A DNA stretch of 64,000 nucleotides from Trypanosoma brucei (taxonomy: Eukaryota), in assembly GCA_000002445.1 (NCBI GenBank), contig CP000068.1, forward strand, positions 608,001 through 672,000. The letters run 5' to 3'. Of the stretch, positions 10,295 through 33,496 are shown piece after piece. The notes under the pieces are model-generated. The model was not told the origin of the DNA and searched no databases. It saw only the letters and a list, made by a program, of their open reading frames with translations. The position numbers and the translations under genes are program-made. The number at the start of each line of letters is the position of its first letter. The stretch's first letter is position 1.

Positions 10295-10298
<4 letters not shown>

Positions 10299-10331
<33 letters not shown>
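10299..10331. repeat. (ATT)n microsatellite
   Basis: attattattattattattattattattattc is read directly. Related (TAA)n lies at 2044-2076, (GTT)n at 1128-1160 and 6926-6946, and (AAATA)n at 9030-9050. Confidence 0.9.
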
Positions 10332-13051: not shown

Positions 13052-14161
13052 TTGTTTTCACGGAGTCCACGAATAATGCGCCCCACCGGAGTACGCTGTC
13101 TTGCTTCACCCCTCAGCTTAATGAGAGTTACCGGAACCCCCAACACCGGCCCCCGTGTGTTGTCGCCTGATGGTACGAAATTTTCATGGGATCCCTACAG
13201 CGGTGCATCCGTTGATGGAAGTGAAGTTTTCACCCAGTCACCTCATCTCGCCGCGCAGTTCCCCGGTCACGCGTCTCCTATTCAACTCCCTCCGCCCAAT
13301 GTGGCGTCGGATGGTGTCTCTTTTGCATCGACACTTAATTGGCAATCTCAAGGGGATGGCGGAGCAGCATATGATTCCTCAGTTGTTGGGTACTGGGAAG
13401 AAACCGGTCCCAACCGTGGCGCACTGCGACTTGGTTCCGATGAACAACAACAACAGCAACAGCAACAACATCAGTTATATCGGACAGGCCCACTCGCGCA
13501 AACGTTCTTCCAGACGACCGGCAGCGGTGCACCTCCCTTCGACAACGCCGTTGTTACGCATGGTGATGCTAACTTTAATTCAGGTTTTGGTGTGGTGGCA
13601 TCGCCGCATCGCCCATCATCGCGAGCGGGACGTTACGGCACTTCACGTGGTGTTTCTTTATCCGCCTCTCGAGGAAGATCTTTTGAATCCACTCCATTAT
13701 GGGGCCACGGGCAATCCGGAGCCGCAGAGAGAAAGCTTCCATTTAGACGTATGATCCCTCCGCCCGTCCCTTATGAACTTGCATTGCGTCAACTCTCCCG
13801 TTCGGGTCTTGCCGATCCCGAAAGGGTTCTCGAAGGAATTCTTCGTCACTGGCACAGGTCTACACAAGTTGCAGTCGGTGTACTTCGTAGCGAAGCTGCT
13901 TCTTCAGTTGAGGAAAGTTGCCCGTCCCCTCCTTCAGGAAATGACCGCGAAGCAATAGTCGAATGGGTGACACGTTGCGAGGGATGGTGGCAACAGAATT
14001 TTGGAACCCAACCCCGCAGCGGTGCTGACCGGCAAAATGCGGCTCATACGTTTAATGGAAATCGGGGACACAGATCCAATGATGGAAGGCGTCCTCATAC
14101 ATCAGGGGCTGCAAGTAGGAATAATCATGCATTCGCCGGCATGAACGGAAGAAGGGGGTGA
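13052..14161 (+). CDS. hypothetical protein carrying a K-F-SWDPY motif and a poly-Q tract (possible paralogue of 8011-8805)
   Basis: 369 aa ORF on the cluster strand. The N-terminal GTKFSWDPY motif and a (Q)9 tract mirror the architecture of the 8011 gene. This is the last gene before the strand-switch region. Confidence 0.5.
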   Translation: MFSRSPRIMRPTGVRCLASPLSLMRVTGTPNTGPRVLSPDGTKFSWDPYSGASVDGSEVFTQSPHLAAQFPGHASPIQLPPPNVASDGVSFASTLNWQSQGDGGAAYDSSVVGYWEETGPNRGALRLGSDEQQQQQQQQHQLYRTGPLAQTFFQTTGSGAPPFDNAVVTHGDANFNSGFGVVASPHRPSSRAGRYGTSRGVSLSASRGRSFESTPLWGHGQSGAAERKLPFRRMIPPPVPYELALRQLSRSGLADPERVLEGILRHWHRSTQVAVGVLRSEAASSVEESCPSPPSGNDREAIVEWVTRCEGWWQQNFGTQPRSGADRQNAAHTFNGNRGHRSNDGRRPHTSGAASRNNHAFAGMNGRRG

Positions 14162-17100
14162 GAACAGAAGATTAAAAATGAAAAAGAAAAAGAAAAAAAA
14201 GGGGGGAGAATCAACAAGGTGGACATGTTGATTTCCCCCCCCCTTTTTTTTTCTTTTTCTTTTTTTGTTCTTCTTTTTCGACATGTGTCTGTTGTGCCCC
14301 TTCCTTCTATTCTCTCTTCACTCCACGCCTCCCCTCTCCACACACACATATATATATATAATATAATATATGATATATATATATATATATACATTTCTCC
14401 GCACCGGCTTTTTGTCGTGTGTTTATTTTTCATTTTTCTCTTTTTATTTAATTTCCTTTGTGAAGTTTCAACCAAAACAACACCAAACCATTTAAAAAGA
14501 AAAAAGATTTTTCTACCTTTTTTTGTTTTAACCTTGCGCGTGTGTCTTTTCCATTTTGGTTCTACCTGTACCTGTTGGTTCGTTTTTTTTTTTCTTTCCA
14601 CCTTTTAGACACTTTGGCGGATAATGATCTTCAGTGCTAAAATTGAAAATAACAGGAGTTGATCGAAAGTCTGATTTTTGTTTTCATTTTTTAAAAAATA
14701 TATTTTTGATATATTTCCCCTCCTTTTTTTAAAAAAGAAAAAGATGTCAGATAAGTGGGATAGAGGAACGACGGAGATAAATATAAATAAATATATATAA
14801 ATATATTAATACATGTGTTTCAACATATATATATATATATATTTACATGTACTTGTTTGTTTATATGTATTTATGCGCATAACAATAGCAGCGGAAGTGC
14901 GCTCGAGTGTGTAACTAGATGTTGTGATGGGAAAGAGAAAGGGGAAGAAGGGTGGGGGAAAAAAAGAAAGAAAGAAAAAACAGCGATCAATAAAGTTAAT
15001 AATAATTCCGCTAAGGGTTTACTCACAGGTGGCGTGTGTACGCAACCTGGGTGATGCAAGTGAAGAGGAGAAATTAATAAAATAAATTAATAAATTTATA
15101 AATATATAAATATATAAACATGTATGTATATATGTATGTATGTTTTCGACTGGGTTAGAGTAGATAAAGTGGATAAAACGGGAAAAGGTGAAAAAAAAAA
15201 ATACTGGATGACGAAGTGAAGAAGTGGAAGACTTGTTTTGTTTTTTTTTGTTTGTTTGTTTTATATCAACCATAATTTTGTTTCTTTTTTCATTTTCAAT
15301 CTGTTAGGTCAAATTAGGATGTTTTGTTTCTTCATTAGTGAAATATGTTTACTTATTTCATTTTCGTTTGTATGATCGCCTGTTTGTTTTCCATTTTGTT
15401 TTTGTTTTGGAAAAAAAAACTTTTGGTGGCGAGTTATATATTTCATATATTTTTATACTCTTTTACTACACTTCGTTTTTTTTTTCTTTGGGTGGAGGCC
15501 GCGTTTGTGTTTCACAGCAGCAAAAAAAAAAAAAAAGAATTCAATACCAAGAGCGATATAAAGTATATATATTATATACATATATATATATTATATTTTA
15601 TATTTTATATGTGTATATATGTGTGTGTGTGTGGATATGTGTGTGGATGCGTTGGGGGTTTTCCTTTTTTTGGGAGTGGTGTGTTTGTGTGTGTGTGTGG
15701 GAGAGAGAGAGAGAAAAAAAAAAATAAATAAATGGAAAATTAGGAAAAAGTGCAGGAGATTCTGTCGACTCTTTTCTAAGAAAAAAAAAATATATTCACA
15801 AGAAAGAAAAGAGAAAAAGTAAAAGATGAGGGAACAGTCCCTCTTTTTGTTTGTTTATTTTTCTTACTTTCTCTTTTTTTTTTTCATGATCTTCCTTCCC
15901 TTTTGGTTACAATCATCTTCCGTTTTTACCTCTTTTTTTAAAAAAAATTTTCCTTCTCTACTTTTTTTGGCGTCCCGCACGTCTGTCTGAGATTTCCCAT
16001 TAATTGTCCATTTAATCAATTTTTTTTAATAAAAAAAAGCGTTTTTTTTTCACTTTTTAGTAATAATAATTATTATTATTTTGTCTTTTTTTTCTTTTTC
16101 TTTTTCCTGGCTTCTTCCCATCCTTTTATTATTACTACTATTATTATTGTTATTGTTATTACCATTATTATTATTATTGTTATATTATTACCATTATTAG
16201 CATTTTTATGGTTATTATTATTATTATTATTATGTTCATTACAACACTCTTCCCCCCCCCCATATCCTCTCTCTTTTTTTTTTCCCCTCCCTCCCTCTTT
16301 CTTCTCCTCCTCCTTCCCTTTCTTTTTTTTTTCATCTCGACTTATTTTGTTACGAGATTTTTTGTTTTTGTTTTGTTTTTAATCCTTTTGGTTTTCACTC
16401 CCCAAATTAGGGCGGTTACGTAAAAAAAAAAACAAAATTTTTTTTTTCTTTTTATTTCCCCCTTTTTTGTTTTTTTTTTGGGTTTCTCTTTTCTTTTGTT
16501 TCTTTGTTGTTGTTTTTTTGTATTTTTCTTCTTATGAGGAGCGAAAAGGGCAGGGGAGAGGATTAAGGGGGAAAATAGGAAGAAGAAAAAATAAAAATAA
16601 AGAAACGAAACAAAAGGAAAGAAAATTAATAAATGGATAGATGAAAATAATCAACAACGATTTTTTTTTTTCCCCCTCCCCTTCCTAACAAAAAAAGAAA
16701 AAGGGGGTGCGGATTATTGTAATGACGACAGCGATAATAATCGCAATAAAAAGAATAAAATGTATAAATATATATATATATATATGTCTAAGCGCTCACG
16801 TTCGCAGTGTATCCCGTGATAATTTTACCTAAAAGAAGGTACGTTAAATAGGAGGAAAAGAAACAAACGAACATACACACACGCAAAAAACAAATAACAA
16901 ATAAGAAACAAACGAAAAGAGAAAAAGCGGAAATAATGAATGATAATACTTCTTGAGTTTGGCTTGTGTTGTGTGGTGCCTCACTTGTCAAAACACGACA
17001 AAACAAAGCAAAGAACTGTAAAAAACAAAAAAAAAGAAAAGAAAAGAAAAGAAGAACGGAAGAGGCGCGGTATAACAATGAAGAGCAAACGGATGTGGTT

Positions 17101-19859
17101 TGTTTTTTTTTTTTTGTGTGTGTGTGTTTGTTTGCCGCTGCTTCCCACGTTTCTTTATCTTTTTTTTTTAGAGGTAATAATAGTGTTGTTTTTGTTGTTG
17201 TTGTTGTTTTTTTTAATGCGAGAAAAGCGGAAGGAAAATTAGGAAGGAATGCGTTTAATTTCTTTTTTTAAAAAAAAAAAATAATAATAATCGTCATTAT
17301 TAATTTTTTTTGTCCCCGATGATTCCCATCCGTCACCATTTTTTTTTCTTTCCTTTTTTCTTTTTTTTTTTTGTTTATGTATTATTCGATTCGGTAAGTG
17401 CACAAAAAGACACCTTCGGGAACCGAAACCCTTAGTGGTAACCTGTTGTGGATTTTCCTTTTTTTTTCTTTTTTTTTTTGAAAGGAAAAGACAAAAATAA
17501 AAATAAAGGACAGAGCGGTGATTAAGTGAGCGATTAAAAAAAAAAAATAGAAGAAAAATATATACGAAGACATAGGAAAGAAACAAACATATATATATTA
17601 ATATGTTATATTTATATTATATTTATATATTATACAAGTTTCAATATGTATTCCAATCCTAAACAAGAGATGATAATGCACACACCGAAACGCAGAAACG
17701 GGTGCAATAATAATAAAAATAAAAGTAAAATAACAATAATAATAATAATAATGGTGGTGGTGATGGTGATGATTATGGAAATTGTTGTAAGACATTTATT
17801 ATTACAATAATTATTATGATCATCACAAGGCCCAATGAAGGGAGGGGGAAAAAAAAAGAAATAAAGTGAAACTTATAAAAACTCATTCCTTCCTATTCGA
17901 TCTTCCTACGAACATCTTTCAACGTAAGTGATAAAATTTGAGAAGTGAAAAAAAAACGAAAAGGAGACGCCAGTTAACACTTTCATGAAGTGGAGTTACT
18001 ATCTTGTTGTTACGAACCCGTGTTTTGTTTTTCCTCTTTCCTTCTCTATCTCTCTTTATTTTTATTTTTGTAACAAAACAGAAATAAATAAATAAGTGAG
18101 GTTTTTTAAATTTTAATTTTATTCATTGATGGATATATTTATATATTTATTTATATATGTTTATATTTATTTTTATTTTTCTCCCCCTTTCTTCCATTTC
18201 TTGAATTAGCAGCGGTTCCCACAAATACAAATACAAATACACCTCAACCTTAAATGATTATTTGGTGATGGTGATGATGATTAGAGTGGTACGAGTGACA
18301 CAACAACAACAAAAAAGAAAAAAAAGAAAAACACATAACATGACATAACATAAAATAAAATAAAATGCAGAAAAGGAAAAAGAAAAAGAATGCAAAGATA
18401 GAAAAGAAATAAAGCGAAGTGGCCGCCACTTTTGTTATCGATAAACGGAACCAATGCAAAAGCACAGGGTGAAAGGGACAGGAAAAAAAAAAAGGGAAAA
18501 GCGAAAACGAAAAAGGAAAAAAAAAAGTGACTAAAGGTATGTTTTTACATATTTCTCTGTATAGGAACTTATGTCGCGAATCGCCTGAAGAAAAAAAAAA
18601 GGGGCTAAAGAAAAATAGAAAGAAAGAACACAAAATGAACGAGGGAAATGAAAAGGTTTTTTTTTAAAAAAAAAGAAGCAGCAATCCGCTTCACTGTCAT
18701 CAGCTTTTTTTTTGTTTCTATTATTATTATTATTATTATTATGTTGTCTTTTACTGTTGTTGTTGTTGTTTCTTTCCCGTTTCTCCTACCTTATTTTCCT
18801 GGTCGTCGCTGATGCTGGAAATTCAAGAAAACACACACACAATTGAAAAAAAAAAAGCAAAAGCAATTAAATCAAAGGTGGTCACGGTTTCGCCAGGGTG
18901 ATGATCATATTTACAATAATTTTATCTTAGAAAGCTCTGGTGGTTAAATACAAGATGGAAGAGGGGATGGGAAAAAAAAAAAAGGAATACCGTGAACATA
19001 TATTACAGAGACCGGCTACTTGTGTAAATAAAAAGTGAAAAAAAAATCTTTTTTTTTTGGGGGGGGGTGGAGGGAGGGGGTTTCTCCCTATATTTATTTA
19101 TATTTGATATTTTTGTACCTTAAGATGCGGTATCGGTTGGGAGAATGGAGAGAGTTGGTGGGGAAAAAAATTGGGTCAAACATCAGAAAATGGAATGTGG
19201 GAAATTCGTATCAAACACTTAAGCGAAATTATCCAAATTTAACAAAGAAAAAAGGGAAAGTACTTTTTATAAATTTGTGATAGTACAAATGTTAACATGA
19301 ATAATTAATGAACCATAAACAAATGAATTTTAAATTCATTGGTGTTTGTACTTATATATATCTATATATTTACGGGTTTGCCATGTAGGCACTTTCTTGA
19401 GTTGAAAGGATGAAATTTCAGGGGTGGGGAGAAACAGCCGTTAAGGAGGAGTAAATAAAATGAATGAAAACAAAAACAGATGTATATAAACGTGCGTGTA
19501 AGCATAGCTGCATATTTATATTTGTGTGTTTTTGTTTTGTTTAAGTTCCTCCCCCTTTTTTGGCGGCGTACACCACGTAATTTTTCTCTTTTCCTCCGAT
19601 TTGTGTTGTGCGTGCGTATGTATGTGTATGTGTATGTGTGTGGTGGGGAGCAAAGCAAACGGAGGAGACGGGGAAATGGAAGGAAAATATTTAAAAAAAA
19701 AAGAAAAGACAAAGTAGAAGTGAGAGAAAGTAAAGAAACATAAATATAATGACACACCACCTTCCCATCTACCGGCTCCGTTTGAATTCTTTCAACTTTT
19801 CCATCCCTCGTTATTTTCAGGGAGCAGCTGTTGTTATCATTGTTATTACCTGTGATTGA

Positions 19860-19893
<34 letters not shown>

Positions 19894-22058
19894 GATGTTA
19901 TTCGTGTTCCCCTCCCTTTCTGTCCCACTTTCCCTCCTCTCTCTCTTTTTTTTTTTTTACCTCCGGTATTTCTGGTTTTCCGCTTATGTTTTTTCTTTCG
20001 AATTTCACTAAAGTAAACCACAACATCACAGTTATTTGATGTTGAACACCACCACCACCCCTTCCAAAAAAAAAAAAAAAAATCGAAAGCGGAGATAATG
20101 ACGATGAATGCGAGGAGAAGGTGTGATCGACGTTGCGATGGAAATGAATAGGAAAAAAAAAGGGGAACAATGATGTTAAGGAAAAAAAGCAGAAGAGAAA
20201 GAAAATGATGTCCTTCAGAGTGAAAACAACAGCAATAGTGACGATATGATAATAATTAACAAAAACAAGGATGGTGATGGCAATGATGATGTGAGAGAAA
20301 AGGAGAGAGAAAGAGTAGTGGAAATAAAGCGAGAGCCCGTGTACGAAAAAGAAGAGAAAAATTATATATGTATGCGAGAATATGTGCCTGTTTTCCCCCT
20401 ACAAGCTTTTTTTCCTTCTGCGCTTATCACTATTATTCATTTTTTTTATTTTTGCGCCATGGTGGTAGCGGATTTTAGTTAATGAAACGGGAAAAGAATA
20501 TATTGTTGTTTCTTCCGCTCCACCGACCTTACTTTTTTTTCATTTTTTTAAATTATTTTTGAAAATGCCATCGTTCGTTCTTTGATTAATCCGTCTTTTT
20601 TCCCCCGTCGTTTCGTTTGTCTTGTTTTGTTTTTCACTCGGTTTCTGTTTAACTTATTTCGTAGTGCAGGGTGAGGAGGTGGTCTGGGCCAATGAATAAT
20701 AATGACCATGCTAATGATAATAACGACAATACCAATTGGGGCAGTGGAACGCCGCTCCGGGAACATATAGCGAAGGACGAGGGCGGATAAGCGCAAGCAG
20801 AAGCAAAACTAGGGAAGGAACGTGGCGAGGCGGGCATATTCAAAAAAAACACATGAGAGTGCGCACAATGCCGTTTGCACGCATGAGGATACATGCATAT
20901 ATTTTTATATGTATGTTGTTTCACTTAAAATATATATTTACATATACGTATATATTTTTAAAAGAATGCGTGTGTCCCGTCATCTCGTCGTCACACGTAG
21001 CCACCGGCTCGTGGACATGCGAGTGAAAACGGGTGCGGATGAGCATGCATGTGCGGTTGTGCGCGCGGGCGCGACTGCGTATGAATGTTTGCGACCGCCT
21101 GAACATGTTCGCAAATGTGTGTCCGGTGCCGGCGCACATTTGTGTGATATGATCATGGGTGATGGTGCGCGAGCAAAAGCATTCATCCAGCAACATGTAT
21201 GGTGCGTCGGTGGAAATACCGAGTTCCTCCAAGGGAACGTGAGCAGGGTCTCATGTTTTTTGAGGAAACCGGCCCGCCGGCGCCCGCGCTCCGGCGGGTG
21301 CACACTCGCATCATGGGATCACGCTTTAGTGTGCGTTTTTGAATATGCCTGCCACAACCCCGATCCAGTAGTTTTGTCTTTTCCTAAGCGTTGTAGCGTG
21401 CGCGGGGCGGGTCCCGTCATATACACGAGGACGTGCGCCTTCGCGGATGGAAATGGGTGGGGGTTTTGTGTGTGTCGTTTCCTTTAGCGATTAGCATTTG
21501 GTGGGCTTCGCTGAGGATGCAAAACGTCAGCACACCCCCCGCTTATTCCTATCTTGGAATGAGAAGAAAAGCACGCGCGCGTTTCGATCGCGGCCCTTTG
21601 GCGGTTGTTTGCCCTGTATCGGCCCTTCGATGCGATCGTGTCTTGTTCCTTTCACGAAGCACGCCGCTCATCCCCCCTTTGAAATTTGGGCTCAAATCGC
21701 CGTGTCGGTTTCCGGTTCGCGGTAGTCCCTTCTTTTCCCACCCCAAGAGGAGTCCCCAAGCTTTTTACCCCTTTTTAAAATTAAAATAATAATTTTCGGC
21801 CCTGGCGATCCCCGACCCTCGACTTCAGTAATCACCGAGTCCCATCGACCTGCTTTCTTCCACATCAAATTTTGAGCACCCCCCCCCTTTCTGCTGCTTT
21901 TTGCTGATACGCCCCCCCGGCCGCCCGCCGCTTTCTCCTCCGTCTCTTAACATCACCCCCCTCCCCCCATTCCTCCTTTTCTTTCATAGCATAGGTTATG
22001 CCCGCCCGGCCCCGCGCCCTTCCGCCACCACCCCCCCCCCGAACCGGCGCCCGTCACG

Positions 22059-24566
22059 GCCGCCCGACTTGCCACGGAAACATTCCTTCGCAACAGACGT
22101 CTCCCCCCCCCCCCCAACCCGGACACCCGACGGCGACCCCATTGAAACGCGCCCCTCTCGTTCTTACCGGTGAACAAGCTGTCCCCGCTCGGCACTCAAC
22201 CCTTCTGTTGCCCCACCTGCTTTTCTTTCACCTTTCTCGCCAAAAAATAAAATAAAATAAGGGAAAGCCACGCCGCGCGGTCGCGACGAGCGCGTTTTCA
22301 AAAGAAAAAAAGATTAGCTCAGGCGGAACCGTATCTCTCGTTTCGGAGAGGTTCTTTTTTATCATCTTTTAGAGAAAATTCGCCCAACGCCCGAAATCAT
22401 GGCGGGTTTCAATATCGACGGAAGGGTCGGACACCCCGGCCGGCTCTCGGGTCCGCCGGGGCGTGTACCGGTGCCTCAAAGTGGCCACCCGAACCCGGTG
22501 GCGGTTTATTGGCAGGCCGCGCCCTTCCCCGTGACCGCGGCATTCGCTGCCCCCCAACTCGTCGGGCCACCCCCCGTCTTTTTTTACCGAAGGGGGGCAA
22601 ACCACCCGGGTCCCGCCCCCCGACCACCAGCACCACCCCCTCGCCGTCATTTGGGAGTCGGCCCGAGCCCGCCGCCGCCTCGCTTTCGCGAAAACCGCAA
22701 TTTGTTTTCGGCGGGGGAGGTGGTTGGTTTCATTCGGTTGGCCCGGCGATGGGATGAAAAGGTAGCGGGGAGAGGGGCCGCCCATCACGCCCGCGGACCT
22801 CCGAATTTCGAATGGCCGCCGGAACCCGAGGACCCCTGGAAGGTTTTGGAGGATTGGTCGGAAACCCGAGCACGGTGGTGGCGCACCAGTCGGGCGGATC
22901 ATCGGGCACCGCGGCGCCGCCGGCCCTCAGGACCCCGCAGCAAAAAAAAAAATTTAAGACCTTTGGAAAAGGGGGTCGAGGTGCCTCGTCACTGATCCCC
23001 CCTCGCCCACGGTGTTTGAAAAAGCGACGACGCTGCCCGCCCACCCGCATTTTTTAAAAACGCGGTTCTTTTCGAAAACTCTAACATATCCTTTCCTGTT
23101 CGAAAAAACGTGCCGCTGTTCACAAACAGCCGCCACCCCTTTGCTACTCCAAAAAGCGTGAAGCTTTTTTGAATACAGGATATTGTCCCTTTTCCCTTCC
23201 CTTCGAAACAAATGGTGACTGTTCAGCACCGGTCCCCCGCTGCCCGTGTTCGGAAGGGGGCCTCGCCTTGCCTTACCTTGCCTCACCCAGCCCCACCTTG
23301 CCTCACCCAGCCCCACCTTGCCTTGCCTTTAAACGGAATACAAAAAACCTCATTCCCCCCGCACAAAAGTTCGCCCCTGGCGCGGTTAAGAGGTCCGGCG
23401 CAACGCTCCGCTTGCGTGGAGGGGGGCGAAGGTGGCCCGGGTGGAACCCGTCAGATTTTTTCCTTAGGAATTAGCCACGGGGCGGCATCGCCTTTGGGCC
23501 CGGCTACTCGCCGCCGGCAAGGAGAGTGGCCCCGCGACACACCCCCGATGAGGGCGGCTGCGATGACCGCCACGCCCTGGCGACGCCGGCCACCTCCACG
23601 TGGTGCCAGGGTCCAGTACCCCGCATCATCGGGGGAAGCCAAGAGCCAGCAGAGTTCCTTTCATGGGGAACACTGCTGTGCTCTGGCCTCGGCATCATAC
23701 AGCACAGGGATCAGCAGCGTCTTGCTGGGACACCGTTTTTCATTTGTCGGTCCCTGGGTCCGTGCCAGCGTGCCATCAGCAGTATCATCCGCACTAAGAT
23801 GCTGCTGTCCGGTGATGTGGAACTCCAAAAAAAAGGATTGCCAATTGACATCTTTTGGAGAGTCCGGGGTGGGAGGCCTCTCGCCCCATCTGCTGTATTC
23901 CGTTCAAATGCGGAAATACAACAAAAAATTATAGAGGGTGTGTTAGGATGAATGAAAAAGGGAGACTCTGCCACAGTCGCCAGACCGATAGCATCTCAGG
24001 GCTCTACGGTGATGGCTGATGGCCGCGCCAGTGGGGGGAAACTCTCACGAAGGCACGAAGAAAATTTCAAAAAAAAAAAAATGACCGTCACGGTGTTTGC
24101 GGCCGCCAACACGCCCGCGCATGGGTTTTTGGCTGCGTTTTCAAGGAGGATGAAGGGACACACGAGTTGGACGGCGGGGGATCAGGAACCCGCGGCGCCG
24201 GAAAAATGCGTTCGAATGTTTTGTTTGAGGGCGCCAAAGCACGCCTCGGGGGGTCGGGATGGCGGACGCCGATTTGCCCACTGCATCGGCGCTATGGGGA
24301 CGCGTGCTGGGGGCCCTAAGGCGGGTGAAAGTTCTGGGGAAACGGAAAGTTTGGCCTTCCGAAAAATGAAAGACGGCGGCGCCGGCGCCCCGGGTTTGCC
24401 ATAAGAAAACATCGAACCTTTATTTTTCTTTTAACCCCCGCATCATTGAGGGCGTTTCGCCGCACGACACCACCGGGGCGGCGCCGTGTCGGACAAAAAC
24501 CGGGCTAAGGGGGCGAGGCACCCCCATCGCTTTCGTCGAGACCCGGGAACCCCCCTTCCGTACGGC
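22059..24566. repeat. repeat unit 1 (2508 bp); carries an extra 20 bp internal duplication
   Basis: cctcacccagccccaccttg is present twice at 23281-23320 and once in units 2 and 3. This accounts for most of the period difference. Several SNPs and A-run length differences separate unit 1 from units 2 and 3. Confidence 0.9.
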
Positions 24567-27053
24567 GCCGCCCGACTTGCCACGGAAACATTCCTTCGCA
24601 ACAGACGTCTCCCCCCCCCCCCAACCCGGACACCCGACGGCGACCCCATTGAAACGCGCCCCTCTCGTTCTTACCGGTGAACAAGCTGTCCCCGCTCGGC
24701 ACTCAACCCTTCTGTTGCCCCACCTGCTTTTCTTTCACCTTTCTCGCCAAAAAATAAAATAAAATAAGGGAAAGCCACGCCGCGCGGTCGCGACGAGCGC
24801 GTTTTCAAAAGAAAAAAAGATTAGCTCAGGCGGAACCGTATCTCTCGTTTCGGAGAGGTTCTTTTTTATCATCTTTTAGAGAAAATTCGCCCAACGCCCG
24901 AAATCATGGCGGGTTTCAATATCGACGGAAGGGTCGGACACCCCGGCCGGCTCTCGGGTCCGCCGGGGCGTGTACCGGTGCCTCAAAGTGGCCACCCGAA
25001 CCCGGTGGCGGTTTATTGGCAGGCCGCGCCCTTCCCCGTGACCGCGGCATTCGCTGCCCCCCAACTCGTCGGGCCACCCCCCGTCTTTTTTTACCGAAGG
25101 GGGGCAAACCACCCGGGTCCCGCCCCCCGACCACCAGCACCACCCCCTCGCCGTCATTTGGGAGTCGGCCCGAGCCCGCCGCCGCCTCGCTTTCGCGAAA
25201 ACCGCAATTTGTTTTCGGCGGGGGAGGTGGTTGGTTTCATTCGGTTGGCCCGGCGATGGGATGAAAAGGTAGCGGGGAGAGGGGCCGCCCATCACGCCCG
25301 CGGACCTCCGAATTTCGAATGGCCGCCGGAACCCGAGGACCCCTGGAAGGTTTTGGAGGATTGGTCGGAAACCCGAGCACGGTGGTGGCGCACCAGTCGG
25401 GCGGATCATCGGGCACCGCGGCGCCGCCGGCCCTCAGGACCCCGCAGCAAAAAAAAAAATTTAAGACCTTTGGAAAAGGGGGTCGAGGTGCCTCGTCACT
25501 GATCCCCCCTCGCCCACGGTGTTTGAAAAAGCGACGACGCTGCCCGCCCACCCGCATTTTTTAAAAACGCGGTTCTTTTCGAAAACTCTAACATATCCTT
25601 TCCTGTTCGAAAAAACGTGCCGCTGTTCACAAACAGCCGCCACCCCTTTGCTACTCCAAAAAGCGTGAAGCTTTTTTGAATACAGGATATTGTCCCTTTT
25701 CCCTTCCCTTCGAAACAAATGGTGACTGTTCAGCGCCGGTCCCCCGCTGCCCGTGTTCGGAAGGGGGCCTCGCCTTGCCTTACCTTGCCTCACCCAGCCC
25801 CACCTTGCCTTGCCTTTAAACGGAATACAAAAAACCTCATTCCCCCCGCACAAAAGTTCGCCCCTGGCGCGGTTAAGAGGTCCGGCGCAACGCTCCGCTT
25901 GCGTGGAGGGGGGCGAAGGTGGCCCGGGTGGAACCCGTCAGATTTTTTCCTTAGGAATTAGCCACGGGGCGGCATCGCCTTTGGGCCCGGCTACTCGCCG
26001 CCGGCAAGGAGAGTGGCCCCGCGACACACCCCCGATGAGGGCGGCTGCGATGACCGCCACGCCCTGGCGGCGCCGGCCACCTCCACGTGGTGCCAGGGTC
26101 CAGTACCCCGCATCATCGGGGGAAGCCAAGAGCCAGCAGAGTTCCTTTCATGGGGAACACTGCTGTGCTCTGGCCTCGGCATCATACAGCACAGGGATCA
26201 ACGGCGCCTTGCTGGGACACCGTTTTTCATTTGTCGGTCCCTGGGCACGTGCCAGCGTGCCATCAGCAGTATCATCCGCGCTAAGATGCTGCTGTCCGGT
26301 GATGTGGAACTCCAAAAAAAAAGGATTGCCAATTGACATCTTTTGGAGAGTCCGGGGTGGGAGGCTTCTCGCCCCATCTGCTGTATTCCGTTCAACTGCG
26401 GAAATACAACAAAAAATTATAGAGGGTGTGTTAGGATGAATGAAAAAGGGAGACTCTGCCACAGTCGCCAGACCGATAGCATCTCAGGGCTCTACGGTGA
26501 TGGCTGATGGCCGCGCCAGTGGGGGGAAACTCTCACGAAGGCACGAAGAAAATTTCAAAAAAAAAAAATGACCGCCACGGTGTTTGCGGCCGCCAACACG
26601 CCCGCGCATGGGTTTTTGGCTGCGTTTTCAAGGAGGATGAAGGGACACACGAGTTGGACGGCGGGGGATCAGGAACCCGCGGCGCCGGAAAAATGCGTTC
26701 GAATGTTTTGTTTGAGGGCGCCAAAGCACGCCTCGGGGGGTCGGGATGGCGGACGCCGATTTGCCCACTGCATCGGCGCTATGGGGACGCGTGCTGGGGG
26801 CCCTAAGGCGGGTGAAAGTTCTGGGGAAACGGAAAGTTTGGCCTTCCGAAAAATGAAAGACGGCGGCGCCGGCGCCCCGGGTTTGCCATAAGAAAACATC
26901 GAACCTTTATTTTTCTTTTAACCCCCGCATCATTGAGGGCGTTTCGCCGCACGACACCACCGGGGCGGCGCCGTGTCGGACAAAAACCGGGCTAAGGGGG
27001 CGAGGCACCCCCATCGCTTTCGTCGAGACCCGGGAACCCCCCTTCCGTACGGC
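24567..27053. repeat. repeat unit 2 (2487 bp)
   Basis: Aligned by eye to unit 1 and unit 3. It differs from unit 3 at only a handful of positions, for example catcatacagc versus catcgtacagc. Confidence 0.9.
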
Positions 27054-29467
27054 GCCGCCCGACTTGCCACGGAAACATTCCTTCGCAACAGACGTCTCCC
27101 CCCCCCCCCCAACCCGGACACCCGACGGCGACCCCATTGAAACGCGCCCCTCTCGTTCTTACCGGTGAACAAGCTGTCCCCGCTCGGCACTCAACCCTTC
27201 TGTTGCCCCACCTGCTTTTCTTTCACCTTTCTCGCCAAAAAATAAAATAAAATAAGGGAAAGCCACGCCGCGCGGTCGCGACGAGCGCGTTTTCAAAAGA
27301 AAAAAAGATTAGCTCAGGCGGAACCGTATCTCTCGTTTCGGAGAGGTTCTTTTTTATCATCTTTTAGAGAAAATTCGCCCAACGCCCGAAATCATGGCGG
27401 GTTTCAATATCGACGGAAGGGTCGGACACCCCGGCCGGCTCTCGGGTCCGCCGGGGCGTGTACCGGTGCCTCAAAGTGGCCACCCGAACCCGGTGGCGGT
27501 TTATTGGCAGGCCGCGCCCTTCCCCGTGACCGCGGCATTCGCTGCCCCCCAACTCGTCGGGCCACCCCCCGTCTTTTTTTACCGAAGGGGGGCAAACCAC
27601 CCGGGTCCCGCCCCCCGACCACCAGCACCACCCCCTCGCCGTCATTTGGGAGTCGGCCCGAGCCCGCCGCCGCCTCGCTTTCGCGAAAACCGCAATTTGT
27701 TTTCGGCGGGGGAGGTGGTTGGTTTCATTCGGTTGGCCCGGCGATGGGATGAAAAGGTAGCGGGGAGAGGGGCCGCCCATCACGCCCGCGGACCTCCGAA
27801 TTTCGAATGGCCGCCGGAACCCGAGGACCCCTGGAAGGTTTTGGAGGATTGGTCGGAAACCCGAGCACGGTGGTGGCGCACCAGTCGGGCGGATCATCGG
27901 GCACCGCGGCGCCGCCGGCCCTCAGGACCCCGCAGCAAAAAAAAAAATTTAAGACCTTTGGAAAAGGGGGTCGAGGTGCCTCGTCACTGATCCCCCCTCG
28001 CCCACGGTGTTTGAAAAAGCGACGACGCTGCCCGCCCACCCGCATTTTTTAAAAACGCGGTTCTTTTCGAAAACTCTAACATATCCTTTCCTGTTCGAAA
28101 AAACGTGCCGCTGTTCACAAACAGCCGCCACCCCTTTGCTACTCCAAAAAGCGTGAAGCTTTTTTGAATACAGGATATTGTCCCTTTTCCCTTCCCTTCG
28201 AAACAAATGGTGACTGTTCAGCGCCGGTCCCCCGCTGCCCGTGTTCGGAAGGGGGCCTCGCCTTGCCTTACCTTGCCTCACCCAGCCCCACCTTGCCTTG
28301 CCTTTAAACGGAATACAAAAAACCTCATTCCCCCCGCACAAAAGTTCGCCCCTGGCGCGGTTAAGAGGTCCGGCGCAACGCTCCGCTTGCGTGGAGGGGG
28401 GCGAAGGTGGCCCGGGTGGAACCCGTCAGATTTTTTCCTTAGGAATTAGCCACGGGGCGGCATCGCCTTTGGGCCCGGCTACTCGCCGCCGGCAAGGAGA
28501 GTGGCCCCGCGACACACCCCCGATGAGGGCGGCTGCGATGACCGCCACGCCCTGGCGGCGCCGGCCACCTCCACGTGGTGCCAGGGTCCAGTACCCCGCA
28601 TCATCGGGGGAAGCCAAGAGCCAGCAGAGTTCCTTTCATGGGGAACACTGCTGTGCTCTGGCCTCGGCATCGTACAGCACAGGGATCAACGGCGTCTTGC
28701 TGGGACACCGTTTTTCATTTGTCGGTCCCTGGGCACGTGCCAGCGTGCCATCAGCAGTATCATCCGCGCTAAGATGCTGCTGTCCGGTGATGTGGAACTC
28801 CAAAAAAAAAGGATTGCCAATTGACATCTTTTGGAGAGTCCGGGGTGGGAGGCTTCTCGCCCCATCTGCTGTATTCCGTTCAACTGCGGAAATACAACAA
28901 AAAATTATAGAGGGTGTGTTAGGATGAATGAAAAAGGGAGACTCTGCCACAGTCGCCAGACCGATAGCATCTCAGGGCTCTACGGTGATGGCTGATGGCC
29001 GCGCCAGTGGGGGGAAACTCTCACGAAGGCACGAAGAAAATTTCAAAAAAAAAAAATGACCGCCACGGTGTTTGCGGCCGCCAACACGCCCGCGCATGGG
29101 TTTTTGGCTGCGTTTTCAAGGAGGATGAAGGGACACACGAGTTGGACGGCGGGGGATCAGGAACCCGCGGCGCCGGAAAAATGCGTTCGAATGTTTTGTT
29201 TGAGGGCGCCAAAGCACGCCTCGGGGGGTCGGGATGGCGGACGCCGATTTGCCCACTGCATCGGCGCTATGGGGACGCGTGCTGGGGGCCCTAAGGCGGG
29301 TGAAAGTTCTGGGGAAACGGAAAGTTTGGCCTTCCGAAAAATGAAAGACGGCGGCGCCGGCGCCCCGGGTTTGCCATAAGAAAACATCGAACCTTTATTT
29401 TTCTTTTAACCCCCGCATCATTGAGGGCGTTTCGCCGCACGACACCACCGGGGCGGCGCCGTGTCGG
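27054..29467. repeat. repeat unit 3, truncated (2414 bp)
   Basis: Identity with unit 2 ends after gtgtcgg at 29467. Unique sequence follows (tggtgaaatgttagtgggg...). Confidence 0.9.
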
Positions 29468-32400
29468 TGGTGAAATGTTAGTGGGGCGTTTAGCGCGTGC
29501 CAAGTGGGGTGAGGTTATCCAATTTGGAAAGGTGCATACCTGGTGGGGTGGGGTTGGCGATAGGTAGTCCTCGGAGGGTCTCGTTGTCCGCATCAGTCGT
29601 TGCGTATGATGGTCTTTTTGCGCAATTTCATTGTGAAATTGTCGTCGTTGGTCTTGTTTATGGAATTGCTGAAGTGTTCGGTAAATGCCCTAATTGTCTC
29701 CTGTTGTTGGTGGTGGTGGGGAGGGAAGATTCGACTCTCCCTTTTTCCCAAGCCCCCACAATAATTTACGACGGATGATGTAATCTTTTACTGGAAGTGG
29801 GGCTGTCGCCGAAAGCTTTGTCCTAACACCCCTCAATTTGTTCGCATTCCCTCTTGTCCTCGCCTTGCTTCTTGCGGTGGTGTGTGTTATGTAGGTTTCT
29901 GAACGCTACGGTTTCAAACAGCCGCATTTCCGTTCAAACATGTTTAGTGTCGGATAATTTCCGACACCGCATATCTGTTTCCTTAGCTTCTCCACTCTAA
30001 ATGTCCGGTTTAAAATATACTTTTATACTTAGCCATTGAACTTCTCTGCTGCGTTTCTGATTCTTCATGCTCCTCCACTGGTTTGTGGCCTTTGGTAGTG
30101 GGAATTTTTGAGGGAAAGTAACACCAACTCCCGTAACGTCGTCGCTATGGAATTCAGGCCTGTGGTTGCTATGTCGCTGGATTAGCGCTACGGTAACGAA
30201 AAAGCACGATGCCCCATTTTTTAATCCACATTGCTCAAATCTTCCCACATGCTCACGGGGATGTGAAGGAGACGGACATAGAAGACTTTTTATCGTTCTT
30301 TCCCAAATTTTAACCAAATTTCCTCCTCCACCAATTATTGAAGATCCTTTGGAAGAGACCCCCCTCCAGCCCTTTACATCACCCAATTTTCTTGGAAACT
30401 TCTTGCTTGATTCTCTGACGAGGAGCATCCTCTACCGAGATAAGTTTCGCCTCCTCCATTGCCAACAAACACAAGCGTCCCGGGGACTATCGGAAAGCGT
30501 TGATATTCTTGTTGGATTAATAAAGCTGAAAAAAAAAAGCCCAACCTTCCTGCGACAAGCCCTGCTGTCCCTACGGCCGTGTATCCAATGTATCTCAACC
30601 TTTTCAACTCTCCTCTTCACTTTATTCCCCACGCGCTTCAAAAATATCGTAATTCCTTTGTGAAAGGCTCGGATATTAACGTCCTCCTCCTTTCTTCTAA
30701 CCCTCAAAATTCTCAACTCCATCAACTTGACAGTACCTTCACTCTCTCACTTTCTCTGTTTCGCATTTCGTTTCCGCATGGGTGAAGGCGTACAGCGATT
30801 TCGACCCTTTTTTGCCGCACCAAAAAGTGCGTGTTCACCGTCGCTAAAACTCAACCTTTCGCCGTCTACGGCCACAGAACTTCCAAAGAGAAGGAACACA
30901 GCCACCGACACTCTCGTATCCGCATATGAAATACGCGTGTTTCCGCGGAGTCGAGGGGAAAAGCCGTGACAGCCATTTTAGGGAGTACGCGAAGGGTGGG
31001 GCGGCTTCAACGAGAATGGATATTCTCCTTTGTTGACTGTTATTTTCTGCTTATTGGGCAACACCGGGGTGGAAGTGATGACGATTGATGGGAGAAGGGA
31101 AAGTGATACGAACAGGAACGTTTATATTTAACTTTCCCCGAATAACATGGCTAGGAAGATGGGCTGAACCGCGTCGATGAGACGTACCAATCGGGGCGCC
31201 AGGAGACCCACGTAGAAATGCGAGCATGGATGCGGGTGTGACCGTGGTGTGGGGCTTTTGCTCTGGGGAGGTGAAGGAACTGCGCGAAACTGCCAGGAGT
31301 TCGCCTCGTCCTCCCAGCTGTTGCCTGCGTGAGGGAAGTTTTTATGGCCAACTGAAATGGAGAGTCATAACCACATTCTATTTGGCGAATGAGCACAATA
31401 ATGGCAGGGATTCGTTTAGGACAACAGCGGTGACGAGAGCGGGGAGCATACTCACGGCGCGAATGTTAGTTGGGAAGCTTCAATATTCTATGGAAGAACG
31501 GCAAAAAGTACAGTTGTCTGTTTTCTGCCAACAAAGGTTCACCACCAGCCCCACCGCACAACTAATGATGCGAGCAAGGTGTGTGCAAATACAAAATAGG
31601 AACTGAACGGTGGGAATTACACCATTTTGCGCATGGACTATTGGTGAACACTTGAAAACATCATTTGGGGACAACCCTCTACCGTTACAAAGTCTAAAGG
31701 GGAAAAAGCAAAGAAACGCAACGCGACCGCGTTGTGACACAAGTTCCATGTGCGTTGAAAGTTGAATCTGGAAAATCGGCTCTGTCAAGCACCGGTGACG
31801 AGCACACGGCGATGGAAGTAAAGGAACTGGCAACCATTCGAAGTCGGAAATGTCAAGGTTCACTTGTTCTCTCTTGCATGTTTCGCGGTGAGCGGGCTCC
31901 AAGGAGAAATGAGACTATTGGACGCAACGTATTAGCCAACCTTGAAGGTGAGAGACGCACAACAACGGGGAACATTGGGACATTTTCAGTTCGCACACCC
32001 ATTAACACCCAGCACGCACCCTCTGTGGCTAGTTGAAGGATGGGTAGATACGCACAGTTTCTTAAACGCAAACTCCGCCGTCTTCCTCATTCGAAACCGT
32101 TGACGGCAATCGACCTCATTCACCACACTTCCAATAACGCAGAGTTTTTATTGCGGGAAAGATCAAGCACCTTCAGGTTGCACCTTCTTCCTCCTTCAAT
32201 ACCACCAATGCGCATCGGCGATTTCCCTGCTGCCCACGCGCTGTTCCCAGGTTTGTGCATTCGCGACGGCGTCGCCTGCTGTCGCCACGATGCGCACGAA
32301 ACCATTTGGCGGAAGCACACCCTCAATGTCACTTCCCCTTTCCCCTGCGAATTCTCACTACACGCACAGGACGACGGTGCCATCGATCCGACACTAATCA

Positions 32401-33496
32401 AAACGGGGAAACGGAGCTGCCCACTAGGTCGCTTCTTCACCCACGGAAATTTCGAAAACCCTGGCAGATTCCCGCAGCCCCACAAAAATACCTAATAAGG
32501 TGCTGAGTTTCTGGTCCCATTCATGGGCAAACATTTTGGGTGGCATTAGTAAGGTATGGGGAATGAATGATTAGTAACAGTATGGGAGGTGCCGGAACAC
32601 TTCCTATTTTCGACGCCGCGTCCACAACCTTTGCCAATGGTTCAGTTTCGATCCCAAGGTTTTGGGGTATTTAGGAGGAGCCGTCCCGGTTACACGGCTG
32701 GGCACATCCGTCGCCCCACCGAGGGTGCAAGTCTAATTTCCCCACTCAGGGTTTTTCAGAGTGGGAGATTCGATCAAATAGGAGAGTGTCGGCACCCCAA
32801 CCCCGGTGCGTGGCACTTTTCCTTCCCTTCCTGACCGCACGCTTGTCCGGCAGCTGTTAAATAAACTCGTCGGGGCTCATCAAAGTAACCCGTTCCCCTT
32901 GGACAGAAGCGTAGTCGGTCCCCTTTTTAGATTGTGCTCGTGCGCGCCGCCACGTTGAATCGCACTTCGCCACACGAGGTTCGCCTCCTACGTGTTGTTG
33001 TTCTCTCCCGCAGCGCGAGTCAGCATGCACTGCTGGGGGCACGTTTCTCCAATGTCTTCGTCCTCGCACCAAGGGGTGGGGAGCGTTTCACCATTGCGTG
33101 AAAACTGACCTTCCGCCAAAAACCTCTACACATTAACATCTTCATGAGGGCTTCCGGTCATAACCGCCCGCCCACCCGAAACGCTGAGAAGGGATTGGGA
33201 TCGAGCATATCTCTGGACCGAGGGTCGATTCTGGTGCACTCTGCCCTTAAATATGTAGAAAAAAAAAACGCGCACAAAATAAAATTAGCAAAGTTGGCGT
33301 CGCACGAACCGTTTCCGTGACATTATTTCGACATCGGCGCGCATCACTGCGCAGTTTATTCCGCACGGAGAAAAACAAGGAGGAGGAAGCATGCGAAAAG
33401 CCATCGGCTCGCTGCGCTGTTGCAATGTGAGTTATGGCAAACACCAACGTGCACGTATAGAGGATCGAAAGGGACATGCAATACCGGTTTGTTCAT

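What the first reader, a model, noticed from the sequence alone, without database searches (positions are those of the whole stretch)
14162..33496. Convergent strand-switch region about 19 kb long, without an obvious tRNA cluster
All credible genes left of 14161 are on '+' and all right of 33497 are on '-'. The interval between them must therefore hold the termination zones of both polycistronic units.

In trypanosomes, convergent strand-switch regions are usually short and often carry tRNA or other Pol III genes. These features are thought to help termination along with base J and H3.V.

This one is unusually long. It consists of about 7 kb of homopolymer/microsatellite DNA, then the GC island with the tandem array, then about 4 kb of ORF-poor unique sequence. 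I could find no tRNA-like T-arm in the interval.
Basis: partly seen in the sequence, partly recalled or inferred. Interest (0 to 1): 0.6.

Follow-up and report, generated by a model that had tools for sequence, protein, structure and literature searches.

The report
Long retroposon-bearing convergent strand-switch region
This is the annotated gene-free zone on Trypanosoma brucei chromosome 5 where two gene trains run head-on into each other; it is real and long, but ordinary in kind, and much of its length comes from AT-rich spacer plus a strain-variable tandem repeat that carries a RIME mobile element in every copy.

Summary
The window is T. b. brucei TREU927 chromosome 5. The interval lies between Tb927.5.2000 (+, ends 14161) and Tb927.5.2020 (-, ends 33497), and the convergent arrangement is confirmed.

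No tRNA, Rfam family, B box, C/D snoRNA or Pfam domain lies inside. The reference annotation places one ORF there, Tb927.5.2010 (20909-21487, +). It is broken in two sister subspecies, so it is not credible.

The "GC island array" has three 2.49-kb units. Each unit is about 2.0 kb of non-coding 61% GC DNA plus a 507-bp RIME retroposon with a poly(A) tail and a 12-bp target-site duplication. T. b. gambiense and T. b. equiperdum have fewer units and keep the empty RIME site, so the region measures 19.3, 16.1 and 13.9 kb in the three assemblies.

Lacking tRNAs is the norm for T. brucei convergent regions: about 9 of 26 tRNA loci sit in them, and 72 such regions are listed. They are not short either, with a median of 7.3 kb.

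Published small-RNA tables list what is very probably this locus as a source of DCL2-dependent siRNA.

Verdict: a known kind of feature in a reference genome, long mainly because of retroposon and repeat content. Low novelty. Where transcription actually stops cannot be read from sequence.

The parts
13076..14161 (+). Tb927.5.2000 (361 aa), the last credible gene of the + polycistronic unit
   Evidence: Exact match to AAZ11315.1. Syntenic weak homologues lie after the Kelch gene in T. vivax, T. cruzi and T. theileri (tblastn E 1e-17 to 1e-7).
14165..14282 (.). About 118-nt purine-run/pyrimidine-run hairpin starting 4 nt after the stop codon
   Evidence: MFE -49 kcal/mol, z = -6.5 on + and -7.1 on -. 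This is the source of all the spurious miRNA-like Rfam hits. The core is conserved in T. b. gambiense and T. b. equiperdum.
14162..20908 (.). AT-rich low-complexity spacer (homopolymers, TA/TTA microsatellites)
   Evidence: GC is 29-38% per kb. For 14162-21000, GC is 31.8% and 11% of bases lie in homopolymers of 6 or more, the same style as this unit's other spacers (8806-13051: 30.7% GC, 14%). TRF arrays at 16126-16233 and 16443-16535.
20909..21487 (+). Annotated ORF Tb927.5.2010 (192 aa, 'T. brucei spp.-specific'); probably not a gene
   Evidence: Exact match to AAZ11316.1. It has a premature stop in T. b. gambiense and a 4-nt deletion in T. b. equiperdum. No Pfam hit.
21000..29600 (.). GC island (55-63% GC)
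   Evidence: Composition profile. Six-frame Pfam scan of 20700-24600 is empty.
22055..29467 (+). Tandem array of 2.97 units of about 2.49 kb (units start near 22059, 24567 and 27054). Each unit is about 2.0 kb of 61% GC non-coding DNA plus one RIME.
   Evidence: Spacings are 2507 and 2488 nt, and copies are 98-100% identical. The ORFs are non-coding: substitutions peak at codon position 2 and T. b. equiperdum has frameshifts. No Pfam hits. No C/D boxes.
23575..24082 (+). RIME retroposon, copy 1 (508 nt, 54% GC). It starts CCCTGGCG, ends in A13, and is flanked by the 12-bp duplication ATGACCGCCACG / ATGACCGTCACG.
   Evidence: 89-100% identity to T. brucei 'ORF 1' AAA30234.1 (P0073). It shares an N-terminal stretch with CBH15208, which continues into the DVEENPGP peptide and what I recognise as the ingi N-terminus. 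The empty site is present in T. b. gambiense and T. b. equiperdum.
26062..26568 (+). RIME retroposon, copy 2
   Evidence: 98% identical to copy 1, with the same target-site duplication.
28550..29056 (+). RIME retroposon, copy 3
   Evidence: 98% identical to copy 1, with the same target-site duplication.
22103..22128 (-). C12-13 tract plus G-quadruplex-type motif on the - strand, at the start of each unit (also 24611-24635 and 27098-27123)
   Evidence: Regex scan.
29468..33496 (.). Unique ORF-poor sequence (46-53% GC) downstream of Tb927.5.2020; probably its 3' UTR or trailing region
   Evidence: No Pfam hit in six frames. From 30 kb on, divergence from the sister subspecies is 0.3-0.7% per kb, like the neighbouring - unit. 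No tblastx relic of genes from other species.
33497..36106 (-). Tb927.5.2020 (869 aa, MutL_C-like), the last gene of the - polycistronic unit
   Evidence: Exact match to AAZ11317.1. Orthologues are present in T. cruzi and T. theileri.

Best explanation
The interval is the convergent strand-switch region of T. b. brucei TREU927 chromosome 5, between Tb927.5.2000 (or the doubtful Tb927.5.2010) and Tb927.5.2020. I take it to be an ordinary T. brucei RNA polymerase II termination zone of the Pol III-free type.

How it most likely works (inferred from published genome-wide work, not shown for this locus). The two polycistronic units run into a gene-free stretch, where elongation is damped by H3.V/H4.V chromatin and base J. 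Residual overlapping transcripts are processed by DCL2 into siRNAs or removed by RNA surveillance.

Why it is long (shown here). The length has structural, not functional, causes:
1. About 6.7 kb of the AT-rich low-complexity spacer typical of the left unit.
2. An 8.5-kb GC island in which a 2.0-kb non-coding segment acquired a RIME insertion and was then triplicated in the TREU927 lineage. This adds about 5.5 kb relative to T. b. equiperdum.
3. About 4 kb of unique trailing sequence of Tb927.5.2020.

The region behaves as a tolerant landing and expansion site for retroposons and repeats. The junction of the two units is not shared with the more distant trypanosomes I could inspect.
For: Identity of the locus and orientation of the units.

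No Pol III or RNA genes.

No coding capacity inside.

RIME in each unit, with poly(A), a 12-bp target-site duplication and an empty allele.

Copy-number and length differences between three assemblies (19.3, 16.1 and 13.9 kb).

The 3' end of an ingi, with C2H2 fingers, lies at the same array in T. b. gambiense.

The array and GC island diverge 2.8-5% between subspecies, against 0.1-0.7% for coding sequence and for 30-46 kb. This argues against constraint.

Literature:
- Convergent regions carry H3.V and base J and yield DCL2-dependent siRNAs (PMC4721609; PMC3447711).
- RBP33 depletion unmasks transcripts from convergent regions and from ingi/RIME (PMC4162612).
- Mobile elements accumulate in strand-switch regions (PMC4035085).
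- The only chromosome 5 convergent region listed between 459 and 964 kb is 632018-645237 (333 RPM small RNA). Tschudi's CTU13 (630600-639800) gave 2401 reads on both strands and fell to about 1% in dcl2-/-. These coordinates fit this locus, which lies at 576-592 kb in T. b. gambiense and 672-686 kb in T. b. equiperdum.
Against: No transcript, histone or base J data were examined for this locus itself.

The match to the published coordinates rests on position and on elimination of alternatives, not on sequence.

Small-RNA counts there could be inflated by multi-mapping ingi/RIME siRNAs. Reynolds et al. used Bowtie2 -a.

The origin of the 2.0-kb GC-rich part of the unit remains unknown.

The RIME 5' ends carry a Pr77-type sequence, which is reported as an internal promoter. 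Some transcription may therefore start inside the interval rather than only end there.
Confidence: 0.8

Rival explanations
1. Compound region. The interval is not purely a termination zone. It also contains internal transcription start sites that feed sense and antisense RNA into the zone. Candidates are the Pr77-type 5' ends of the three RIME copies on the + strand, and the G12-13 tracts on the - strand at each unit start.
For: Three RIME 5' ends start CCCTGGCG. Pr77 is reported as an internal Pol II promoter in the L1Tc/ingi clade (PMC4035085; PMC3383444, abstract listed). C12-13 tracts and G4-type motifs recur once per unit. The probable locus gives fairly high small-RNA counts on both strands.
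Against: In the text I read, promoter activity is stated for the shared Pr77 hallmark of L1Tc/NARTc and ingi/RIME; I did not check which elements were assayed. ingi/RIME RNAs are kept low by RNAi. No initiation marks or capped transcripts could be checked here. This reading is compatible with the main explanation rather than exclusive of it.
Confidence: 0.15
2. Rearrangement scar. The GC island marks a lineage-specific junction of two ancestral gene blocks. It could even be the relic of a GC-rich, retroelement-bearing centromere of the T. cruzi type that was inactivated when chromosomes fused.
For: In T. theileri the left and right units lie in the interior of different scaffolds (NBCO01000018 and NBCO01000020). 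In T. vivax the Tb927.5.2000 orthologue is followed 6.3 kb later by a + strand LRR gene, not by the MutL_C gene. T. cruzi centromeres are GC-rich, lie near strand-switch regions, and are enriched in L1Tc and VIPER (PMC13508446 abstract). This locus combines a GC island, retroposons and a strand switch.
Against: No reverse transcriptase, endonuclease or VIPER remnants were found in six-frame Pfam scans. The RIME is a young, polymorphic insertion, not an ancient relic. There are no telomeric or 147-bp repeats. The visible T. cruzi sequence beyond the MutL_C orthologue is not GC-rich. T. congolense, and the T. cruzi far flanks, could not be inspected.
Confidence: 0.07
3. The array encodes something functional, either a protein family or a structured non-coding RNA such as a snoRNA cluster.
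For: ORFs of 150-240 aa recur in each unit. Tandem repetition is typical of trypanosome snoRNA clusters (my own knowledge).
Against: Substitutions peak at codon position 2, and T. b. equiperdum has frameshifts. No Pfam hits. There is no C box on either strand and no Rfam hit at E<=5. Divergence is 3-5% and copy number varies. The only database relatives are the orthologous T. b. gambiense ORF at this locus and RIME/ingi-derived ORFs elsewhere.
Confidence: 0.03
4. Assembly artefact. The three copies, and so part of the length, come from mis-assembly of a repeat.
For: Two other assemblies show fewer copies, and one of them has a 100-N gap at this spot.
Against: The copies are not identical. Unit 1 differs from units 2 and 3 by about 1.5-2% and by one extra 20-bp motif. 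The junctions are clean. All copies share one RIME insertion with the same target-site duplication.
Confidence: 0.03

Closest known systems
T. brucei convergent strand-switch regions / Pol II transcription termination regions (Siegel 2009; Reynolds 2016, PMC4721609; Schulz 2016, PMC4721952)
   Same: Two polycistronic units converge on a gene-free stretch with no Pol III gene. It is very probably the listed region chr5:632018-645237, which gives siRNA-size small RNAs.
   Different: It is longer than all but one of the 72 listed regions when measured from the last credible gene. It also contains a GC-rich tandem array. Chromatin marks and termination points were not verified for this locus.
tRNA-associated convergent regions (L. 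major chromosome 3 paradigm; Padilla-Mejia 2009, PMC2695483)
   Same: Convergent gene clusters.
   Different: No tRNA, B box or other Pol III gene is present. Termination cannot rely on a Pol III unit here.
RIME, the non-autonomous ingi-derived retroposon of T. brucei
   Same: About 0.5 kb, a conserved 5' start, a poly(A) tail, and a 12-bp target-site duplication. 89-100% identity to the deposited T. brucei 'ORF 1' sequence. The 5' half is shared with an ingi-type ORF that carries DVEENPGP.
   Different: Nothing essential. This one was copied three times as a passenger of a 2.49-kb tandem duplication, not by three separate insertions.
siRNA-producing convergent transcription units (Tschudi 2012, PMC3447711; CTU13)
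   Same: The position fits CTU13. Reads come from both strands and depend on DCL2.
   Different: Identity with CTU13 is inferred from coordinates only. Part of the signal could come from RIME.
T. cruzi GC-rich centromeric strand-switch domains (PMC13508446)
   Same: A GC-rich island with retroposons at a strand switch.
   Different: No degenerate L1Tc- or VIPER-type coding remnants. T. brucei centromeres are AT-rich 147-bp arrays, absent here. No kinetochore data were examined.

Membership tests
Convergent strand-switch region (Pol II termination region) of trypanosomatids | The flanking polycistronic units point towards each other | tested here: met
   All supported genes left of 14161 are on + and all right of 33497 are on -.
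Convergent strand-switch region (Pol II termination region) of trypanosomatids | No credible protein-coding gene between the two units | tested here: met
   No Pfam signal. The array ORFs and Tb927.5.2010 fail comparative tests.
Convergent strand-switch region (Pol II termination region) of trypanosomatids | Enrichment of H3.V, H4.V and base J; loss of Pol II and transcript signal | not testable with these tools
   Known genome-wide (PMC4721609), but no track for this locus could be read.
Convergent strand-switch region (Pol II termination region) of trypanosomatids | DCL2-dependent siRNAs from overlapping transcription | tested here: inconclusive
   The published tables list chr5 630.6-639.8 kb and 632.0-645.2 kb with such reads. 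Identity with this window is inferred from position.
tRNA/Pol III-marked convergent region | At least one tRNA or other Pol III gene inside | tested here: not met
   ARAGORN finds none. Rfam finds none. B box absent.
RIME retroposon | About 500 bp with the conserved ingi-clade 5' end and the ingi 3' end | tested here: met
   507-508 nt starting CCCTGGCG. 89-100% protein-level identity to T. brucei ORF 1 (AAA30234.1). The 5' half is shared with the ingi-type ORF CBH15208.
RIME retroposon | 3' poly(A) and a target-site duplication, with an empty site in relatives | tested here: met
   A12-13 tail, a 12-bp duplication ATGACCGCCACG, and empty sites in T. b. gambiense and T. b. equiperdum.
Trypanosome snoRNA cluster | C/D or H/ACA-like snoRNAs within tandem units | tested here: not met
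   No RUGAUGA...CUGA pair on either strand. No Rfam hit.
T. brucei centromere | AT-rich arrays of about 147 bp (CIR147-type) | tested here: not met
   TRF finds only three short arrays of period 3, 40 and 20.
T. cruzi-type GC-rich centromere | KKT2/KKT3 binding; degenerate L1Tc/VIPER content | tested here: not met
   No RT, endonuclease or recombinase remnants. Kinetochore binding is not testable here.

The most novel reading that the evidence does not exclude
The GC-rich, RIME-bearing array is more than a passenger. It may be a T. brucei-clade insertion at a synteny breakpoint. Its Pr77-type 5' ends and G-tracts would start transcription inside the termination zone. That would make the region a self-contained dsRNA/siRNA source, or a heterochromatin nucleation site that helps stop both converging units. 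Copy number would then tune the effect between strains.
Probability: 0.1. Interest if true: 0.45.

Novelty: already known. Interest (0 to 1): 0.18.

Why it matters
It matters little as a discovery. The locus is an annotated convergent strand-switch region of the T. brucei reference genome, and the class has been profiled genome-wide.

The useful outcomes are corrective:
- tRNA-free and multi-kilobase is the normal state of these regions in T. brucei.
- The extra length here is explained by spacer DNA plus a retroposon-carrying tandem duplication that differs between subspecies.
- Tb927.5.2010 is probably not a gene.

The locus could serve as a natural test case. It exists in alleles with one, about two, or three units, with or without RIME. 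That allows a test of whether repeat and retroposon load in a termination zone changes read-through or siRNA output.

Tried and rejected
- tRNA, tmRNA and Rfam scans of the window, and ARAGORN tRNA scans of seven related loci: nothing.
- B-box pattern: absent.
- C/D snoRNA box search in a unit: none.
- Pfam on ten array ORFs, and on six-frame translations of 20700-24600 and 29400-33500: nothing credible. The only hit was a sub-threshold DUF6238.
- Bacterial or plasmid origin of the GC-rich unit: no blastn match in 72,556 plasmids.
- Relics of genes that neighbour the orthologues in T. cruzi or T. theileri (a 303-aa gene and a protein kinase): no tblastn or tblastx signal in the interval.
- Polypyrimidine-tract strand bias as a proxy for where each unit ends: uninformative.
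- CpG-driven hypermutation as the cause of the faster divergence of the GC island: rejected. CpG observed/expected is 1.06, and only 5 of 30 transitions are at CpG.
- Exact look-up of the 869-aa protein's contig failed, and the first homology search returned only the T. brucei cluster. Synteny was therefore reached through the Kelch and Tb927.5.2030 proteins instead.
- The 10-kb flank limit prevented seeing what lies beyond the MutL_C orthologue in T. cruzi and T. theileri.
- TREU927 coordinates of the window could not be obtained directly.
Full report
**What the window is**

Exact protein look-ups place the window on chromosome 5 of Trypanosoma brucei brucei TREU927.
- The 869-aa MutL_C-like protein (33497-36106, -) equals AAZ11317.
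- The GMP reductase equals AAZ11323, and mt-LAF8 equals AAZ11322.
- The 334-aa protein at 7801-8805 equals AAZ11314. That sequence is on record only for TREU927.

From the accession order, and from the names returned for Tb927.5.2000 and Tb927.5.2010, the gene map is as follows.
- Plus strand: Tb927.5.1980 Kelch (3407-5356), .1990 (7801-8805), .2000 (13076-14161) and .2010 (20909-21487).
- Minus strand.2020 (33497-36106).2030 (37466-38677).2040.2050 (Methyltransf_16).2060 (Myb/CDC5).2070 (mt-LAF8).2080 (GMP reductase), then a kinesin, an RRM-like protein and a G-patch protein.

**Checking the observation**

The convergent arrangement is real. ARAGORN finds no tRNA in the window. Rfam finds no family at gathering score. 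A permissive Rfam search of 13.5-34 kb returns only sub-threshold chance hits, mostly miRNA-like and mostly piled on one hairpin. The tRNA B-box consensus does not occur anywhere in the 64 kb.

- 14.2-21 kb is 29-38% GC, and 11% of its bases are in homopolymers of 6 or more.
- 21-29.5 kb is 55-63% GC.
- 29.5-33.5 kb is 46-53% GC and unique.

Its N-terminus is a translated TA microsatellite. It has no Pfam hit. The orthologous sequence carries a premature stop in T. b. gambiense and a 4-nt frameshifting deletion in T. b. equiperdum. The annotated strand-switch region is 12.0 kb and the credible one is 19.3 kb.

**What the GC island and the array are**

The array runs from about 22055 to 29467. 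It holds 2.97 units with spacings of 2507 and 2488 nt.

Its ORFs are not genes.
- They have no Pfam domains, either as ORFs or in six frames.
- Between subspecies, substitutions in the 198-aa ORF fall mostly on codon position 2.
- T. b. equiperdum has frameshifts.

There are no C boxes, so it is not a C/D snoRNA cluster.

An exhaustive HMMER search with the ORF at 23212-23934 found five relatives, four of them from T. brucei.
- One is the orthologous 'unlikely' ORF of T. b. gambiense.
- One is 'ORF 1 [Trypanosoma brucei]' (AAA30234.1). It matches 23605-24016 at 89-100% identity.
- One is CBH15208, from another chromosome. Its shared stretch runs straight into DVEENPGP and MQWNCAGLSQGKRLALH. 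From my own knowledge, these are the 2A-like peptide and the endonuclease N-terminus of ingi.

The DNA confirms a RIME element in each unit.
- The copies lie at 23575-24082, 26062-26568 and 28550-29056, all on +.
- Each is 507-508 nt, begins CCCTGGCG and ends in A12-13.
- Each is flanked by a 12-bp direct duplication, ATGACCGCCACG.

The last unit of T. b. gambiense and the only unit of T. b. equiperdum have the empty site, with one copy of the 12-mer. So the insertion is young and polymorphic. Because all three TREU927 units share it, the triplication followed the insertion.

In T. b. gambiense an upstream unit is interrupted. It contains a 100-N gap and the 3' end of an ingi-type element with C2H2 zinc fingers.

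The remaining 2.0 kb of each unit (61% GC) has no detectable relative and no coding or RNA signature. Its origin is unknown.

**Why the region is long, and how unusual that is**

Measured between the same two genes, the region is 19.3 kb in TREU927, 16.1 kb in T. b. gambiense (with a gap) and 13.9 kb in T. b. equiperdum. The difference is the array copy number plus the RIME.

The 6.7-kb AT-rich part looks like the other spacers of the left unit. For example, 8806-13051 is 30.7% GC with 14% homopolymer. The spacers of the right unit are 45-53% GC.

I used the 72 convergent regions tabulated by Reynolds et al. (PMC4721609, S2 Table, Lister 427 coordinates) as a yardstick. Their median is 7.3 kb, the interquartile range is 4.9-10.7 kb and the maximum is 52.8 kb. 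A length of 19.3 kb is exceeded once, and 12.0 kb is exceeded 14 times. The region is therefore genuinely long. However, such regions in T. brucei are not 'usually short'.

**tRNAs**

T. brucei has 66 tRNA genes at 26 loci. Of these loci, 34.6% (about nine) lie in convergent regions (PMC2695483). Briggs et al. noted tRNAs in 2 of 15 convergent regions analysed (PMC6294496). Most convergent regions therefore lack tRNAs, and this one is typical in that respect.

**How it most likely works**

Shown here:
- two units converge on a stretch without genes or Pol III units;
- the stretch tolerates retroposon insertion, tandem duplication and fast sequence change. The GC island and array diverge 2.8-5% between subspecies, against 0.1-0.7% for coding sequence and for 30-46 kb.

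Inferred from the literature:
- in T. brucei such zones carry H3.V, H4.V and base J;
- loss of H3.V raises dual-strand transcription and siRNAs;
- the siRNAs depend on DCL2;
- RBP33 depletion unmasks transcripts from convergent regions and from ingi/RIME (PMC4721609, PMC3447711, PMC4162612).

The published tables list a chromosome 5 convergent region at 632018-645237, with 333 RPM of small RNA in wild type. They also list CTU13 at 630600-639800, with 2401 reads split evenly between strands and about 1% remaining in dcl2-/-. It is the only convergent region listed on chromosome 5 between about 459 and 964 kb. Our locus sits at 576-592 kb in T. b. gambiense and 672-686 kb in T. b. equiperdum. 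I therefore take it to be this locus, but that is an inference from position. Some of those reads may be multi-mapping ingi/RIME siRNAs.

**Comparative context**

The left-hand order, Kelch then .1990 then .2000, is conserved in T. vivax, T. cruzi and T. theileri. The right-hand order is conserved in T. cruzi, T. theileri and Leishmania. There, two extra genes (about 303-365 aa, and a protein kinase) lie between the .2030 and .2020 orthologues in T. cruzi and T. theileri.

In T. theileri the two blocks lie deep inside different scaffolds. In T. vivax the .2000 orthologue is followed by a + strand LRR gene. The convergent junction is therefore probably specific to the T. brucei lineage or its close relatives. 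T. congolense could not be examined.

This, together with the GC island and the retroposons, prompted the 'rearrangement scar or relic centromere' idea. The absence of degenerate retroelement coding remnants and the youth of the RIME argue against it.

**Verdict**

The feature is a known kind of element in a reference genome. Its length is explained mostly by spacer, a retroposon-carrying tandem duplication and trailing sequence. Novelty is low.

Two questions remain open: where transcription actually stops, and whether the RIME 5' ends or G-tracts start any transcription inside. Public ChIP-seq and RNA-seq data could answer both.

Noticed in passing
window 14165-14282: A near-perfect hairpin of about 118 nt, made of a purine run and a pyrimidine run, starts 4 nt after the Tb927.5.2000 stop codon (MFE -49 kcal/mol, z about -6.5 to -7). 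Its core is conserved in T. b. gambiense and T. b. equiperdum. It is the cause of all the spurious miRNA-like Rfam hits.
   Followed up: partly
window 20909-21487: The annotated gene Tb927.5.2010 ('T. brucei spp.-specific protein') has a premature stop in T. b. gambiense and a 4-nt frameshift in T. b. equiperdum. Its N-terminus is a translated TA repeat. It is probably a mis-annotation.
   Followed up: yes
window 1-21000 versus 29500-64000: There is a compositional domain boundary. Spacers of the left unit are 31-37% GC with 7-14% homopolymer, and genes are sparse. Spacers of the right unit are 45-53% GC with 2-6% homopolymer, and genes are dense.
   Followed up: partly
window 21000-29500: The GC island and array diverge 2.8-5% from the sister subspecies, with transitions about equal to transversions. 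Coding sequence and 30-46 kb diverge 0.1-0.7%, and the adjacent AT-rich part diverges 1.5% and is transition-dominated. The excess is not CpG-driven.
   Followed up: partly
L001 (T. b. gambiense FN554968.1), locus 19301-20780: At the array, T. b. gambiense carries a 100-N gap and the 3' end of an ingi-type element with C2H2 zinc fingers. About 600 nt of sequence after the point equivalent to window 22021 is unrelated to TREU927.
   Followed up: partly
window 23275-23323: The 20-bp motif ACCTTGCCTCACCCAGCCCC is present 2.5 times in unit 1. Units 2 and 3 appear to have one copy fewer, which accounts for the 2507 versus 2488 nt spacing.
   Followed up: no
L008 (T. cruzi) 11429-15348; L009 (T. theileri) 11639-16134: T. 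cruzi and T. theileri have two genes (about 303-365 aa, and a protein kinase) between the orthologues of Tb927.5.2030 and Tb927.5.2020. These are absent from this position in T. brucei, and no relic was found in the window.
   Followed up: partly
window 13076-14161: Tb927.5.2000 is labelled 'T. brucei spp.-specific'. However, it has weak, syntenic homologues after the Kelch gene in T. vivax (E 1.6e-17), T. theileri (7e-11) and T. cruzi (two paralogues, about 1e-7).
   Followed up: partly
protein P0071 (XP_018644080.1): A 67-aa 'Schistosoma mansoni hypothetical protein Smp_186500' falls in the same 90% identity cluster as T. brucei RIME ORF 1. It is probably trypanosome DNA contaminating that assembly.
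   Followed up: no
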